NCBI GenBank assembly: GCA_044237845.1
Contig: JBIIEL010000004.1
Span: 8,812-72,811, forward strand
Origin: Rickettsiales bacterium
Lineage (GTDB): Bacteria; Pseudomonadota; Alphaproteobacteria; Rickettsiales; UBA3002
Reading direction: 5' to 3'
DNA length: 64,000 bases
Shown here: positions 47,816 through 50,176 of the stretch, in pieces
How positions within the stretch are numbered: the first letter of the stretch is position 1
Layout of the letters: each line of letters starts with the position of its first letter
Translations under genes and position numbers: made by a program
Notes under the pieces: generated by a model
The model's database searches: none
Told to the model about the DNA's origin: nothing
Seen by the model: the letters and a program-made list of their open reading frames with translations, nothing else

Positions 47816-50176
47816 ATGTCCTACACTTCTGAGCAAAAAACATCGGTGCAAGTCATTATCAACCATATGAAGCATTCCCCGCAAACGGCGGCCTATGCGA
47901 AGCAGTTCCAGCAGATGCTGGATGCAAACCAAACCCTCCCCGACAGCCATATTGAAGACGTATTGAAAGCCGTGCAAGGCGAAAAAGTGGGCTATAAAAG
48001 CGCGCTCATCGCCCTCGCACAGCGCAATCGCTATACGGAAAGTGCCGGGCGCCTGCTCGGCGCAACGGTGCGGATGACGGGTAACGCAGAGGCCTATCAG
48101 TCGTTACAAGTCGAGCTCATGCGGGCGTCCATCAGCCCGCAGCCGGTAGTGACGCCAGGCAATGTTGACCGTGCGATTAAACAGATGGATATCGATATCG
48201 CGGCGGAAACCCACCCGGAGATTGCCAACAGCCTGCGTGCCACACGAGGGGCGCTGGTGCAGCTGCGCACCTATGCGCAGGCTGAAATGCGTGGGCGGAC
48301 ATTCCTCATCAGCCTCGAACCGCTGATTGATTTCAACGAGCGCAAGGCAGAACATGCGAGTGTTCTGGCTGCAAAACGCGAACATGTGGAGGAGCGCAGC
48401 AAAGAGCGTACAAAAGAGCGCGAGCAATATGCCGAGCCGCATGCGGAAGTACATCTACCTGAGGCACATATGGAGCGTGCAAAAGAGCATGTCGAAATGC
48501 ATATGCCGCATATCCATACCGTGCATCGCGAGACAGTGCATGCGCCGACGCTCAACCTTGAGAGCGAGCCGCGGGTCTATAAGCCGGGGCTGAAAAGAGC
48601 AGTTCGGTATGTCAACAAAGACGTGCGTGCGGAACTGCATTATGAGATGGAGCAGCTTTCGCGGCGCGCACTGCAGCAAAGCATGCACCATATGCTTTTC
48701 AGCAACGCGGAGCAACATGCGGTCAGTCAATTTACGAAAGTGGAGTCGCACACTAACACGACTCATTCTGCTAAGTCTAAGCGCAACTATGCGATTGAGC
48801 ATGGGCATGTGGAGCGCGCGCCACTGCAAAAAACTACTCCTGTACTGCGTAAGCATGTGGAGGCAAAGCCGCATGTGATGACCAAAGAAGAGCGCATTGA
48901 TGCGATTATCGCAGAGCGCCACCCTGAGCCGAAGACATCACTCGGCAAACTGGATAGAAAAGCAGGAAAGGTGCTTGGTGTGGCGACGATTACCGTCAAC
49001 ACCGCTGCGTCGATTACAGCAGCATTGCAGGGTGATTATGACAAAGCCCGCCAATATGCGGGTGTAGCCGCGGCTAACACAGTCATCGAGGCAGCGCAGA
49101 GCGACCGCGTGTGGCAAGCGCTTGCCAACGCCACTGGTAAATTGGTGAACCAAAAAGCTGGAAAAATGGTCCAGGCTGTCGGTGGAAAAATTCCGGTGGT
49201 GGGTGCGGTGGTCGGTGTCGGCTTCGGATTGTATAACATCGGCAATGAAATTTATAAAGCAACCCAGGGCGAATCAAACTGGCAGAAAGTGACGAGCACT
49301 TCACTCTCTGCAGTAGCCGGAGTTGCGGGTGGGTTTGTCGGTTTTGGTGCGGGTGAGGCGCTGCAGGAAGGCGTGCACTGGGGCACAAAAGCGGCATTCG
49401 GCGAGAAAAATGCTGCCTACCATTGTGCGACGGTGGATCTTGCCATCACTGCCTATGAGGTAGGTAAGGGGGCGGTCGACGCTCATCGCCACATTAAAGA
49501 TCCTACCAAGCAATGGGAGCCGATTCTCGCCGACCTCGAGAAGAAAGGGTGGGGTAAACATGTGGGCAATGGCGATGCTAAAGTCACCCGCGATGAGTTG
49601 AGCGCAACGCTAGCAAAAAATGGCCTTACGCTCGGCATGCTGGATCGGGATAAGAACGGTGTCAGTGGCAAAGAGATCAGCGACGGGCTCTATCTGCAAG
49701 CGCAGCTGAAAGATCTCGAAGCCAAGGGTTGCGGCAAATATGTAGGCAATGGCGATGCGCGCATCGGTGCGGGTGAACTCATCAGCACCTTCGCCAAAAA
49801 GGGTGTGCGGATGGAGTCGGTCGATAAAAACCATGACGGCAAATTCAGCGCGCGTGAGTTGAGCGATGCGTTGCAACCGATCGCCAAAGCGCAGCAGCAG
49901 GCCGTGGCGGTAAAACGCCCTGCGCCGGACGTAGGCGCGGCGCTGCAGTCGCATCTGGCTGAGCTGGAGGCCAAGGGTTGGGGTAAATTCATCGGCAATG
50001 GCGATACGAAAATCGCGCTCGATGAAATCAAGAACGCCTTCGCCAAAAGCGGCGTGAAGCTCGACAGCATCGACAAAAACCATGATGGCAGCATCACCGG
50101 GCGTGAGATTACCGATGCGTTGGCACCAACCGTGGTGGCGTATAACAAGGCACATGCGGGTCGTCAGGGACGGTAG
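47816..50176 (+). CDS. 786-aa protein: unique His-rich N-terminal half, glycine-zipper hydrophobic region, 3 EF-hand-like repeats
   Basis: RBS 'aaggaga' before the ATG. The C-terminal half is paralogous to the C-terminal part of the giant protein. Confidence 0.8.
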   Translation: MSYTSEQKTSVQVIINHMKHSPQTAAYAKQFQQMLDANQTLPDSHIEDVLKAVQGEKVGYKSALIALAQRNRYTESAGRLLGATVRMTGNAEAYQSLQVELMRASISPQPVVTPGNVDRAIKQMDIDIAAETHPEIANSLRATRGALVQLRTYAQAEMRGRTFLISLEPLIDFNERKAEHASVLAAKREHVEERSKERTKEREQYAEPHAEVHLPEAHMERAKEHVEMHMPHIHTVHRETVHAPTLNLESEPRVYKPGLKRAVRYVNKDVRAELHYEMEQLSRRALQQSMHHMLFSNAEQHAVSQFTKVESHTNTTHSAKSKRNYAIEHGHVERAPLQKTTPVLRKHVEAKPHVMTKEERIDAIIAERHPEPKTSLGKLDRKAGKVLGVATITVNTAASITAALQGDYDKARQYAGVAAANTVIEAAQSDRVWQALANATGKLVNQKAGKMVQAVGGKIPVVGAVVGVGFGLYNIGNEIYKATQGESNWQKVTSTSLSAVAGVAGGFVGFGAGEALQEGVHWGTKAAFGEKNAAYHCATVDLAITAYEVGKGAVDAHRHIKDPTKQWEPILADLEKKGWGKHVGNGDAKVTRDELSATLAKNGLTLGMLDRDKNGVSGKEISDGLYLQAQLKDLEAKGCGKYVGNGDARIGAGELISTFAKKGVRMESVDKNHDGKFSARELSDALQPIAKAQQQAVAVKRPAPDVGAALQSHLAELEAKGWGKFIGNGDTKIALDEIKNAFAKSGVKLDSIDKNHDGSITGREITDALAPTVVAYNKAHAGRQGR
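49507..50125 (+). repeat. Three tandem ~62-aa EF-hand-like coding repeats
   Basis: 'LADLEKKGWGKHVGNGDAKVTRDEL...DRDKNGVSGKEISDGL', 'LKDLEAKGCGKYVGNGDARIGAGEL...DKNHDGKFSARELSDAL' and 'LAELEAKGWGKFIGNGDTKIALDEI...DKNHDGSITGREITDAL'. Confidence 0.85.

What the first reader, a model, noticed from the sequence alone, without database searches (positions are those of the whole stretch)
49507..50125. Five copies of a novel ~62-aa 'GWGK-x-(V/L/I)-GN-x-D ... DKN-x-(D/N)-G' repeat that looks like a paired EF-hand
Three tandem copies lie in C (49507-50125) and two in A (46050-46465).

The consensus is approximately W-x-x-x-L-x-x-L-E-(K/A)-(K/S)-G-W-G-K-(H/Y/F)-(V/L/I)-G-N-(G/H)-D-x-x-(I/V)-x-x-D-E-(L/V/I)-...-(L/V)-D-K-N-(G/H)-(D/N)-G-x-x-x-x-(K/R)-E-(I/L)-x-D-A-L.

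Two copies ('DKNHDGSITGRE' and 'DKNHDGKFSARE') fit the canonical 12-residue EF-hand loop D-x-N-x-D-G-x-(I/F)-x-x-x-E. The other three second loops are one residue shorter ('DKNGDGISGKE'). The first loop of every unit is non-canonical.

The copies are diverged at the nucleotide level, which suggests old duplications under selection rather than slippage. Ca2+-switch modules at the C-termini of proteins without signal peptides fit activation outside the bacterial cytoplasm, or inside a host cell.
Basis: partly seen in the sequence, partly recalled or inferred. Interest (0 to 1): 0.65.

Follow-up and report, generated by a model that had tools for sequence, protein, structure and literature searches.

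The report
C-terminal EF-hand-pair module of mosaic effectors
The five repeats are real calcium-binding-type (EF-hand pair) domains, and with a short basic tail they form the shared C-terminal end of large, signal-peptide-less, membrane-inserting proteins of uncultured freshwater alphaproteobacteria that look like exported effectors.

Summary
Five 63-66-aa units lie at the stated places: two end gene A and three end gene C. They share 43-67% amino-acid identity and 53-70% nucleotide identity.

The paired EF-hand reading is supported by sequence. The family profile matches solved EF-hand pairs (E = 1.7e-11), and 38 of 41 units hit Pfam EF-hand models. Dockerin and Excalibur matches are marginal. 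Loop 2 is canonical, or 11 residues long in 14 of 64 units. Loop 1 keeps the ligands at positions 3, 5, 9 and 12 but always has I/L/V/M instead of Asp at position 1. Fold searches were not significant, and Ca2+ binding is untested.

The main new result concerns context. At least 47 protein clusters (81-3652 aa) carry 1-3 units, always 8-40 residues from the C-terminus. A disordered basic tail follows, with Arg in the last three residues in 87% of members against 26-30% in controls. Most have a Gly-rich hydrophobic domain upstream, variable N-terminal domains (M48 zincin, ABC1-like kinase, RamC_N/SpvC-like lyase) and no signal peptide.

My best reading is a C-terminal export and Ca2+-switch module of mosaic effectors, possibly a type IV secretion signal. 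The secretion system was not identified.

The parts
42011..46507 (+). Gene A, 1498 aa. Mosaic protein with an orphan N-terminal part, a domain shared with B (aa 612-832), a Gly-rich hydrophobic domain, two EF-hand-pair units and a basic tail.
45326..45442 (+). Gly/Ala-rich hydrophobic (glycine-zipper-like) segment of A, aa 1106-1144.
   Evidence: Kyte-Doolittle maximum 2.02. The wider region aa 839-1146, which contains this segment, weakly matches PHROG tail-associated lysin.
46055..46246 (+). Unit A1. EF-hand pair with first loop VGNHDNHITLDE and an 11-residue second loop DKNGDGISGKE.
46265..46462 (+). Unit A2. EF-hand pair with an 11-residue second loop DKNGNGIEAKE.
46463..46504 (+). Basic C-terminal tail of A, ending ...VAHHGAKKPTTGRA. 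Its last 9 residues have pLDDT below 50 (predicted disordered).
46698..47510 (+). Gene B, 270 aa. Paralogue of A aa 612-832 (44% identity), with no EF unit. It is truncated by an in-frame TAA at 46683-46685 relative to the 311-aa ortholog.
47816..50176 (+). Gene C, 786 aa. Orphan N-terminal part, a conserved hydrophobic domain, three EF-hand-pair units and a basic tail.
49166..49363 (+). Conserved Gly-rich hydrophobic hairpin-like domain of C (GGKIPVVGAVVG ... GFGAGE). dN/dS against the ortholog is 0.04.
49511..49699 (+). Unit C1. EF-hand pair with an 11-residue second loop DRDKNGVSGKE.
49700..49891 (+). Unit C2. EF-hand pair with GCGK in place of GWGK and a canonical second loop DKNHDGKFSARE.
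49940..50131 (+). Unit C3. EF-hand pair with a canonical second loop DKNHDGSITGRE.
50132..50173 (+). Basic C-terminal tail of C, ending ...VVAYNKAHAGRQGR.
41945..41959 (+). TTAA-N7-TTAA box about 50 nt upstream of A. It is conserved upstream of the syntenic genes in L001 and L011.
46534..46548 (+). Second and only other exact TTAA-N7-TTAA box in the window, upstream of B.

Best explanation
Each ~63-aa unit is an EF-hand pair. It has an entering helix, a G-W-G-K turn, and a 12-residue first loop that keeps the ligands at positions 3, 5, 9 and 12 but has I/L/V/M at position 1. An exiting helix follows, then a very short third helix, a canonical (or 11-residue) second loop and a last helix.

One to three units plus an 8-40-residue disordered, acid-free tail that usually ends in Arg form the invariant C-terminal module of a family of mosaic proteins. 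In that family the N-terminal enzymatic domains are swapped freely, and a glycine-zipper-like hydrophobic domain usually lies just upstream.

I infer that these are Sec-independent exported effectors or toxins. The C-terminal module would be the delivery part. The basic tail, probably together with the EF-hand pair, would serve as a C-terminal export signal, most likely for a VirB/VirD4 (rvh)-type type IV system.

The EF-hands would stay Ca2+-free and loosely folded at the sub-micromolar Ca2+ of the bacterial cytoplasm. They would fold or switch once the protein meets higher Ca2+ outside or in a target cell. The hydrophobic hairpin would then insert into the target membrane.

Shown: the EF-hand-pair homology, the strict C-terminal position, the basic tail, the mosaicism, the purifying selection and the absence of signal peptides.

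Inferred: Ca2+ binding, export, the identity of the secretion system and the order of events.

My sub-confidences are: EF-hand pair 0.9; binds Ca2+ at least at loop 2, 0.75; module of exported effectors 0.6; type IV system specifically 0.3.
For: EF-hand pair:
- The profile matches solved EF-hand pairs across both loops.
- Per-unit Pfam counts favour EF-hand models.
- Whole-protein Pfam scores pass the thresholds: EF-hand_6 28.5 bits for C and 27.7 bits for A against a cut-off of 25.

Ligand conservation in 64 distinct units:
- Loop 2 has D at position 1 in 59, N/D at position 3 in 59, D/N/S at position 5 in 61, G at position 6 in 56, I/L/V/F at position 8 in 63, and E/D at position 12 in 61.
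- Loop 1 has N/D at position 3 in 61, D/N at position 5 in 62, T at position 9 in 48 and E/D at position 12 in 60. An inert partner loop would be expected to drift at these positions.

Position and tail:
- In all 47 family clusters the last unit ends 8-40 residues from the C-terminus.
- Arg occurs in the last three residues in 87% of members, against 30% of other EF-hand proteins and 26% of window ORFs.
- Net charge of the last 15 residues is +2.1, against +0.3 and +0.5 in the controls.
- The last 9 tail residues have pLDDT below 50 in the model.

Mosaicism, with a conserved C-terminus and variable N-terminus:
- BLAST shows the module map.
- N-terminal domains include Peptidase_M48 and ABC1-like and RamC_N with weak VRP3/SpvC matches.
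- The same chromosomal site next to bipA holds different family members in the window, L001 and L011. L004 shares the downstream SDF and MFS genes with L011.

Other support:
- 32 of 33 full-length members lack a signal-peptide-like N-terminus, and 29 of 33 have a Gly/Ala-rich hydrophobic segment upstream of the units.
- dN/dS is 0.14 for the units and 0.04 for the hydrophobic domain.
- Contigs from RNA-labelled runs with 0-2 mismatches cover gene C.

Literature:
- T4A effectors often have positively charged C-terminal signals, and many carry one or two transmembrane segments (PMC12981334).
- The Bartonella BID domain plus a positive tail is a bipartite signal on proteins with variable N-termini (PMC6509941).
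- Basal Rickettsiales carry an rvh T4SS whose effectors are unknown (PMC9352585, PMC11077975).
Against: - No secretion-system gene lies near any family member I inspected: the window, L001 and L004-L011.
- The whole-genome tools were shut, so the presence of a T4SS in this genome is unverified.
- The placement among early-branching Rickettsiales relatives comes only from earlier notes and MAG titles.
- Foldseek found no significant structural match.
- Loop 1 lacks the position-1 Asp, and 14 of 64 second loops are a residue short, so affinity could be low or absent.
- The unit regions of A and C (units, linkers and tails counted together) are not acidic, unlike most EF-hand sensors.
- Several members sit in prophage-, GTA- or integrase-type contexts. 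That could point to another delivery route.
Confidence: 0.5

Rival explanations
1. These are resident bacterial membrane proteins and are not exported. The hydrophobic hairpin anchors them in the producer's inner membrane. The N-terminal enzymatic domain and the C-terminal EF-hands both face the cytoplasm, and the EF-hands act as an intracellular Ca2+ sensor that regulates the N-terminal domain.
For: There is no signal peptide. A two-helix hairpin would put both termini on the same side, and the basic tail fits the positive-inside rule. No secretion genes lie nearby.
Against: A sensor does not need to sit within 8-40 residues of the C-terminus in all 47 clusters, nor end in Arg. Four members have the unit and tail without a strongly hydrophobic segment. 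The pattern of variable N-terminus and conserved C-terminus, the site hot spot, the mobile-element contexts and the RamC_N/SpvC-like and M48 domains are typical of effectors.
Confidence: 0.2
2. The unit is a dockerin-like, Ca2+-dependent docking module. It would attach the proteins to a partner scaffold on the cell surface, on vesicles or on a phage- or GTA-like particle, rather than sense Ca2+.
For: The size (~65 aa), the two loop-plus-helix segments with a very short helix before loop 2 and the C-terminal position all resemble type I dockerins. The top, non-significant Foldseek hits of the single-unit model are dockerins. Four of 41 units hit Dockerin_1 weakly. Some members lie beside GTA- or phage-tail genes.
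Against: EF-hand profiles win by many orders of magnitude. Position 12 is Glu (56 of 64) and not the Asp typical of dockerins (my own knowledge). A full entering helix precedes loop 1. A and C give no Dockerin hit at E <= 1. No cohesin-like partner was seen, and there is no Sec signal of the kind cellulosomal enzymes have.
Confidence: 0.1
3. The module is a type I secretion signal. The extreme C-terminus would be recognised by an ABC exporter, and the EF-hand pairs would replace RTX repeats as the Ca2+-driven folding ratchet outside the cell.
For: The signal is C-terminal. Ca2+-binding repeats lie directly upstream of it. A hydrophobic membrane-active domain lies further upstream, as in RTX toxins (my own knowledge). 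There is no N-terminal signal.
Against: A and C gave no RTX (HemolysinCabind) hit in Pfam scans at E <= 1, and 22 other members gave none at E <= 0.01. No ABC/MFP exporter lies next to any member; the neighbouring MFP-RND-OMF genes are an efflux pump. A basic Arg-terminated tail and a non-acidic module are not typical of T1SS substrates.
Confidence: 0.1
4. The units are degenerate EF-hand relics that no longer bind metal. They would serve only as a small helical spacer or interaction domain.
For: Loop 1 lacks the position-1 Asp in every unit. Three of the five window units have 11-residue second loops. The unit regions of A and C are not acidic.
Against: The ligand positions are among the most conserved columns in both loops across 64 units. 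dN/dS is 0.14.
Confidence: 0.1

Closest known systems
EF-hand pair domains (calmodulin lobes; SCaMC-1 N-terminal domain, PDB 4zcu; Entamoeba CaBP1, PDB 1jfj/2m7n)
   Same: Two helix-loop-helix motifs in about 65 residues. Loop 2 is the canonical D-x-N-x-D-G-x-I-T/S-x-x-E. The profile aligns over both loops.
   Different: Loop 1 has I/L/V/M instead of Asp at position 1, Gly at position 2, and a conserved G-W-G-K turn before it. The linker and third helix are 4-6 residues shorter. The units are not acidic. The domain is fixed at the extreme C-terminus of giant mosaic proteins.
Non-canonical EF loops: inactive site I of cardiac troponin C; 11-residue EF1 of penta-EF-hand proteins (calpain, sorcin, ALG-2), which uses a main-chain oxygen at the first position (my own knowledge)
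   Same: They are precedents both for loss of binding when the position-1 Asp is missing and for retained binding through a backbone carbonyl. They are also precedents for 11-residue loops.
   Different: There is no sequence relationship beyond the superfamily. Here the deletion is at loop position 7 of the second hand.
XopAW family type III Ca2+-binding effector of Xanthomonas (NCBIfam NF041410)
   Same: It is a bacterial effector built around EF-hands, and it is the only named bacterial family that scored.
   Different: The scores are 29.2 and 13.3 bits against a cut-off of 120, so A and C are not members. XopAW is a small T3SS effector with an N-terminal signal, not a C-terminal module.
Bartonella BID domain plus positively charged tail, and the Xanthomonas XVIPCD (C-terminal T4SS signals; PMC6509941, PMC8740702)
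   Same: A small helical domain plus a short charged tail sits at the C-terminus of proteins with interchangeable N-terminal toxin or effector domains in Alphaproteobacteria.
   Different: There is no detectable homology. BID is a ~100-aa helical domain without metal sites. Recognition of the present module by a coupling protein is untested.
RTX repeats plus the C-terminal signal of type I secretion substrates
   Same: Ca2+-binding repeats lie just upstream of a C-terminal signal, and there is a hydrophobic membrane-active domain. The logic of being unfolded inside the cell and folding on meeting Ca2+ outside is the same.
   Different: The Ca2+-binding fold is different (beta-roll against EF-hand), the tail is basic, and no ABC exporter lies nearby.
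Type I dockerin (Pfam PF00404)
   Same: It is about 65 aa long, has duplicated Ca2+ loop-plus-helix segments and sits at the C-terminus of large enzymes.
   Different: The profile matches are weak (4 of 41 units, best E = 0.02). Position 12 is Glu. An extra entering helix is present. There is no cohesin and no Sec signal.

Membership tests
EF-hand superfamily (pair domain) | A 12-residue loop with oxygen ligands at positions 1, 3, 5 and 12, Gly at 6 and a hydrophobic residue at 8 | tested here: met
   In loop 2 of 64 units, position 1 is D in 59, position 3 is N/D in 59, position 5 is D/N/S in 61, position 6 is G in 56, position 8 is I/L/V/F in 63 and position 12 is E/D in 61. Fourteen of 64 lack position 7 and so have 11 residues. 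In the window, C2 and C3 are canonical and A1, A2 and C1 have 11 residues.
EF-hand superfamily (pair domain) | Two hands paired in one ~60-70-aa domain, recognised by family profiles | tested here: met
   The profile aligns over both loops to SCaMC-1 (E = 1.7e-11) and EhCaBP1. EF-hand_7, the pair model, hits 35 of 41 units. EF-hand_6 scores 28.5 bits for C and 27.7 bits for A against a cut-off of 25.
EF-hand superfamily (pair domain) | Helix-loop-helix geometry in three dimensions | tested here: inconclusive
   The AF2 models show helix-loop-helix-short helix-loop-helix at pLDDT 71-76. Foldseek against the PDB gave no hit with E below 0.3. EF-hand proteins and dockerins are merely enriched among the top rows.
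EF-hand superfamily (pair domain) | Ca2+ binding | not testable with these tools
   This needs ITC, 45Ca overlay, or NMR with and without Ca2+.
Canonical EF-hand (first loop of each unit) | Asp at loop position 1 | tested here: not met
   Position 1 is I, L, V or M in 63 of 64 units and F in one. Positions 3, 5, 9 and 12 are kept. A few relatives (for example P0017 and P0056) have D-x-D-x-D-G here, so the canonical form exists in the family.
XopAW (NCBIfam NF041410) | Score at or above the curated cut-off of 120 bits | tested here: not met
   C scores 29.2 bits and A scores 13.3 bits.
Dockerin type I (PF00404) | Match to the dockerin profile | tested here: not met
   A and C give no hit at E <= 1. 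Four of 41 units hit, best E = 0.02.
Excalibur (PF05901) | DxDxDGxxCE loop with the conserved Cys, and a profile match | tested here: not met
   Two of 41 units hit, best E = 0.011. None of the five window units has a Cys in the second loop.
C-terminal type IV secretion signal (VirB/VirD4 type, bipartite as in Beps) | Position at the extreme C-terminus with a short, positively charged, unstructured tail | tested here: met
   The last unit ends 8-40 aa from the end in 47 of 47 clusters. Arg is in the last three residues in 87% of members, and the net charge is +2.1. The last 9 residues of the tail have pLDDT below 50.
C-terminal type IV secretion signal (VirB/VirD4 type, bipartite as in Beps) | A T4SS with a coupling protein in the same genome, and transfer that depends on it | not testable with these tools
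   The genome search and the fetch from genomes were shut. No T4SS gene lies in the window or in the loci fetched.
RTX / type I secretion substrate | GGxGxD nonapeptide repeats and an adjacent ABC/MFP exporter | tested here: not met
   A and C gave no HemolysinCabind hit in Pfam scans at E <= 1, and 22 other members gave none at E <= 0.01. The neighbours are an MFP-RND-OMF efflux pump.

The most novel reading that the evidence does not exclude
The EF-hand pair plus the Arg-terminated tail is a previously unrecognised bipartite C-terminal translocation signal. It would mark the effector repertoire of the rvh-type type IV secretion system in basal, free-living relatives of the Rickettsiales, whose effectors published surveys could not find. 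Ca2+ would act as the switch that keeps the cargo export-competent inside the cell and folds it after delivery.
Probability: 0.2. Interest if true: 0.8.

Novelty: new variant of a known kind. Interest (0 to 1): 0.5.

Why it matters
The fold itself is ordinary, because EF-hands are known in bacteria. What matters is the pattern around it.

A single small module is fixed at the very end of at least 47 otherwise unrelated-looking large proteins. That gives a simple sequence tag for pulling out a whole set of candidate exported effectors or toxins from uncultured freshwater and wastewater alphaproteobacteria.

Published work on basal Rickettsiales reports an rvh type IV secretion system but no recognisable effectors (PMC9352585). 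If this module is the export tag, that question becomes directly testable.

The module would also be an EF-hand counterpart of the RTX principle of folding on meeting Ca2+. The strictly conserved loop 1, with no Asp at position 1 but all other ligands kept and a G-W-G-K turn before it, is a clean case for studying non-canonical Ca2+ coordination.

Tried and rejected
- Foldseek of the single-unit and two-unit AF2 models against the PDB gave no significant match. I could not confirm the structure by fold comparison.
- Phage genomes: the scan of viral contigs with the unit alignment found no relative, and tblastn of C aa 381-786 against annotated phages found nothing.
- Plasmids: tblastn of the same fragment against annotated plasmids found nothing.
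- The 41-unit alignment was too diverse for the search for related loci. I replaced it with the hydrophobic-domain alignment, which gave 3 loci, and with a narrow unit alignment on metagenomes, which gave 5 loci.
- phmmer of B and of the N-terminal parts of A and C against PDB sequences found nothing usable. Pfam, NCBIfam and PHROGs found no family for these parts.
- Dockerin, Excalibur, XopAW and RTX memberships were tested and rejected.
- I considered DNA slippage as the origin of the repeats and rejected it. There is no tandem DNA repeat and dS is saturated.
- Whole-genome searches for T4SS genes and further paralogues could not be run, because the tools were shut.
- Literature searches for an EF-hand C-terminal module in T4SS effectors, or for an EF-hand plus glycine-zipper effector, found no description.
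Full report
**The observation**

The region holds three plus-strand ORFs between bipA (39858-41678, minus strand) and an MFP-RND-OMF efflux operon. They are A (42011-46507, 1498 aa), B (46698-47510, 270 aa) and C (47816-50176, 786 aa).

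- A1: nt 46055-46246
- A2: nt 46265-46462
- C1: nt 49511-49699
- C2: nt 49700-49891
- C3: nt 49940-50131

The units are 63-66 aa long. They share 43-67% amino-acid identity and 53-70% nucleotide identity. A quarter to nearly two-thirds of identical residues use different codons. Tandem Repeats Finder reports no DNA repeat there. BLASTP of the A tail against the C tail gives E = 1.8e-29.

The quoted loops are correct. C2 and C3 have 12-residue second loops, and A1, A2 and C1 have 11-residue ones. One refinement is that C2 and C3 are separated by a 16-aa linker.

**What the unit is**

Pfam already calls EF-hands on both proteins above its thresholds. EF-hand_6 scores 28.5 bits for C and 27.7 bits for A against a cut-off of 25. 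EF-hand_1 scores 25.6 bits for C against a cut-off of 25.4. NCBIfam gives only a weak XopAW match of 29 bits against a cut-off of 120.

A profile of the five units, and a better one of 41 family units, match solved EF-hand proteins. The best hit is SCaMC-1 (4zcu) at E = 1.7e-11, followed by Entamoeba CaBP1 and calmodulins. The alignments run from the first loop through the second loop of one EF-hand pair. They need a 4-6-residue gap in the linker on the query side.

I scanned the 41 units one by one against Pfam:

| Pfam model | Units hit (of 41) |
|---|---|
| EF-hand_6 | 38 |
| EF-hand_1 | 37 |
| EF-hand_7 (pair) | 35 |
| EF-hand_5 | 32 |
| Dockerin_1 | 4 (best E = 0.02) |
| Excalibur | 2 (best E = 0.011) |

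AlphaFold2 on unit C3 with the 41-row alignment gave pLDDT 75.7. On the last 160 residues of A it gave pLDDT 71.3. Both predict helix, loop with a one-turn GWGK helix, helix, one-turn helix, loop, helix for each unit, followed by a low-confidence tail.

Foldseek against the PDB gave no significant hit. Dockerins lead for the single unit. Calredoxin, troponin C, myosin light chains and calmodulin lead for the two-unit model, all with E of 0.3 or more. The profile test is therefore met and the fold test is inconclusive.

**The two loops**

I tabulated the loop positions across 64 distinct units.

| Position | Loop 2 | Loop 1 |
|---|---|---|
| 1 | D 59 | I/L/V/M 63, F 1 |
| 2 | K/R/A | G 60 |
| 3 | N/D 59 | N/D 61 |
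| 5 | D/N/S 61 | D/N 62 |
| 6 | G 56 | G 18 |
| 7 | deleted in 14 | variable (K/H/N/R) |
| 8 | I/L/V/F 63 | I/V/L 56 |
| 9 | T/S 61 | T 48 |
| 12 | E/D 61 | E/D 60 |

Loop 2 is a textbook EF loop. Position 7 is deleted in 14 units, including A1, A2 and C1.

Loop 1 has canonical length and keeps the ligand positions 3, 5, 9 and 12. It never has Asp at position 1, and it is preceded by a G-W-G-K/R turn.

A few relatives have D-x-D-x-D-G in this place. The canonical form therefore occurs within the family, and the I/L/V-G-N-G-D form may be derived from it.

The strong conservation of the remaining ligands argues that loop 1 still coordinates a metal. A main-chain oxygen may take the first position, as in EF1 of penta-EF-hand proteins. 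The opposite outcome, an inactive site as in cardiac troponin C site I, cannot be excluded. Both precedents come from my own knowledge.

**Selection**

I compared C with its 88%-identical ortholog in a related MAG (L001). dN/dS is 0.14 for the units, 0.04 for the hydrophobic domain and 0.21 for the N-terminal part. Between paralogous units dS is 0.5 to saturated.

**The wider family**

A word-indexed search found only five close relatives. The exhaustive profile search of 1.84 billion representatives found 582 proteins at E <= 1e-3. They fall into two classes:
- Generic bacterial EF-hand repeat proteins. These match only profile positions ~20-55 at 9-20 bits per stretch.
- At least 47 clusters that match the whole unit, including the entering helix and the GWGK turn.

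In every one of the 47 clusters the last unit ends 8-40 residues from the C-terminus. The proteins are 81-3652 aa long and carry one to three units.

The tails are basic and almost free of acidic residues:

| Measure | Family | Other EF-hand hits | Window ORFs |
|---|---|---|---|
| Arg in the last three residues | 87% | 30% | 26% |
| Net charge of the last 15 residues | +2.1 | +0.3 | +0.5 |

Typical endings are QGR, GRG, KGR, GRA and MRR.

Of 33 full-length members, 32 lack a signal-peptide-like N-terminus. Twenty-nine have a Gly/Ala-rich hydrophobic segment within 450 residues upstream, and four have none. Reading the sequences, I saw at least four sequence types of this domain. The type in C is highly conserved. 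The wider Gly-rich regions of A (aa 839-1146) and of P0093 weakly match PHROG families annotated as tail-associated lysin and tape measure. This may reflect shared glycine-zipper composition rather than homology.

The N-terminal parts are interchangeable:
- Peptidase_M48 and ABC1-like kinase.
- HExxH proteins, seen in the sequences.
- A RamC_N lyase domain. It scores 30.8 bits in L004, above the cut-off of 27, with weak VRP3/SpvC matches.
- Many orphan domains.

BLAST shows the mosaic directly. The two units of A are 74% identical to those of P0004, but the rest of A is unrelated to P0004. P0004 instead shares its hydrophobic domain with C.

**Genomic context**

The site next to bipA is a hot spot:
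- The window carries A, B and C there.
- The MAG behind L001 carries a 980-aa HEIGH protein, a 311-aa B ortholog and a C ortholog.
- L011 carries a single 1106-aa lyase-type member.
- L004 carries a 1013-aa lyase-type member, followed by the same SDF and MFS genes as in L011.

Other members lie beside phage lysozyme, GTA-type tail genes and a resolvase (P0093, P0026), or beside integrases (P0025, P0005).

No secretion-system gene was seen near any member.

Record titles name the carriers 'uncultured Azospirillum sp.', 'Azospirillum brasilense' (MAG) and 'Rickettsiales bacterium'. Earlier notes of this scan place the genome among early-branching relatives of the Rickettsiales. I could not check this, because the genome tools were shut.

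The gene occurs in lake, freshwater and wastewater metagenomes. Short contigs with 0-2 mismatches from RNA-labelled runs cover gene C.

**How it most likely works**

The architecture has variable N-terminal enzymatic domains and a conserved small helical domain plus a short positively charged tail at the extreme C-terminus. This is the pattern of type IV secretion substrates in Alphaproteobacteria.

Three literature points fit it:
- The Bartonella BID domain plus a positive tail is a bipartite signal (PMC6509941).
- T4A effector signals are often positively charged, and many effectors carry one or two transmembrane segments (PMC12981334).
- Basal Rickettsiales are reported to have an rvh T4SS with no identified effectors (PMC9352585, PMC11077975).

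I therefore read the EF-hand pair(s) and the tail as the delivery end of exported effectors or toxins. Ca2+ would act as a folding or activation switch between the low-Ca2+ producer cytoplasm and the outside or a target cell. The glycine-zipper domain would act as the membrane-insertion part.

Only the sequence-level facts are shown. Ca2+ binding, export and the identity of the secretion system are inferences. I put the full statement at 0.5 and the type IV assignment at about 0.3.

The rival readings and the tests that separate them are listed in their own sections. They are a resident membrane protein with a cytoplasmic Ca2+ sensor, a dockerin-like docking module, a type I signal with EF-hands as the ratchet, and a metal-free relic.

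**Comparison with known families, and novelty**

By sequence the unit is a member of the EF-hand superfamily. It is not a member of XopAW, dockerin, Excalibur or RTX families, all of which were tested.

I found no paper describing an EF-hand C-terminal module in secretion substrates. I found no copy in annotated phages or plasmids.

I rate it a new variant of a known kind. The fold is ordinary. The loop-1 signature is undescribed, and so is the strict association with the C-terminus, the Arg tail and mosaic giant proteins.

Noticed in passing
window 41945-41959 and 46534-46548; a degenerate copy near 47633-47648; L001 about 5679-5693; L011 about 6844-6858: The only two exact TTAA-N7-TTAA sites in the 64-kb window (0.37 expected by chance) lie just upstream of A and B. 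A TTAG-N7-TTAAC variant precedes C. The box is kept upstream of the syntenic family genes in two other genomes, even where the downstream coding sequence differs. It fits a CtrA- or OmpR/PhoB-type direct-repeat operator.
   Followed up: partly
window 46572-46700: Gene B is interrupted by an in-frame TAA (46683-46685). The 311-aa ortholog in L001 reads Arg (CGC) at that codon, and the 37 codons upstream align almost perfectly. B is therefore either a recent nonsense pseudogene or is restarted at GTG 46698.
   Followed up: yes
window 41679-50176; L001 5750-12346; L011 6896-10216; L004 1429-4470: The chromosomal site next to bipA is a hot spot. It holds different members of the EF-tail family in the window, L001 and L011. 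L004 has no bipA in view but shares the downstream SDF and MFS genes with L011.
   Followed up: partly
L006 10001-20959 (P0093, 3652 aa); L008 4855-12321 (P0026, 2488 aa): Giant family members with Peptidase_M48 and ABC1-like domains lie beside phage lysozyme, GTA-type tail genes and a resolvase. The Gly-rich domain of P0093 matches PHROG tail-associated lysin and tape-measure families (E = 1.4e-13). This may be a compositional effect.
   Followed up: partly
L004 1429-2400; L011 6896-7900; L005 2431-3400: Several family members start with a RamC_N-type lyase domain (30.8 bits in L004, cut-off 27). They also give weak matches to the VRP3/SpvC phosphothreonine-lyase family and contain a W-K-F-H-L motif. 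This domain type is otherwise known from type III effectors that act on eukaryotic MAP kinases and from lanthipeptide synthetases.
   Followed up: partly
window 44879-44937: A 21-bp tandem repeat (2.8 copies, 94% matches) lies inside gene A and encodes (QALPLPA)x3 in a low-complexity linker.
   Followed up: no
window 47671-47868 and other parts of gene C: Contigs from RNA-labelled wastewater runs match gene C with 0-2 mismatches. One begins at 47671, about 9 nt after a GCTAGA hexamer that follows the CCTTAA box, which is compatible with a transcription start there. Gene A is almost uncovered in these runs.
   Followed up: partly
window 50184-50305: A long inverted repeat (CAAAACGCATTTTAGTGA ... 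TCACTAAAATGCGTTTTG) starts 8 nt after the stop of C, between the cluster and the efflux operon.
   Followed up: no
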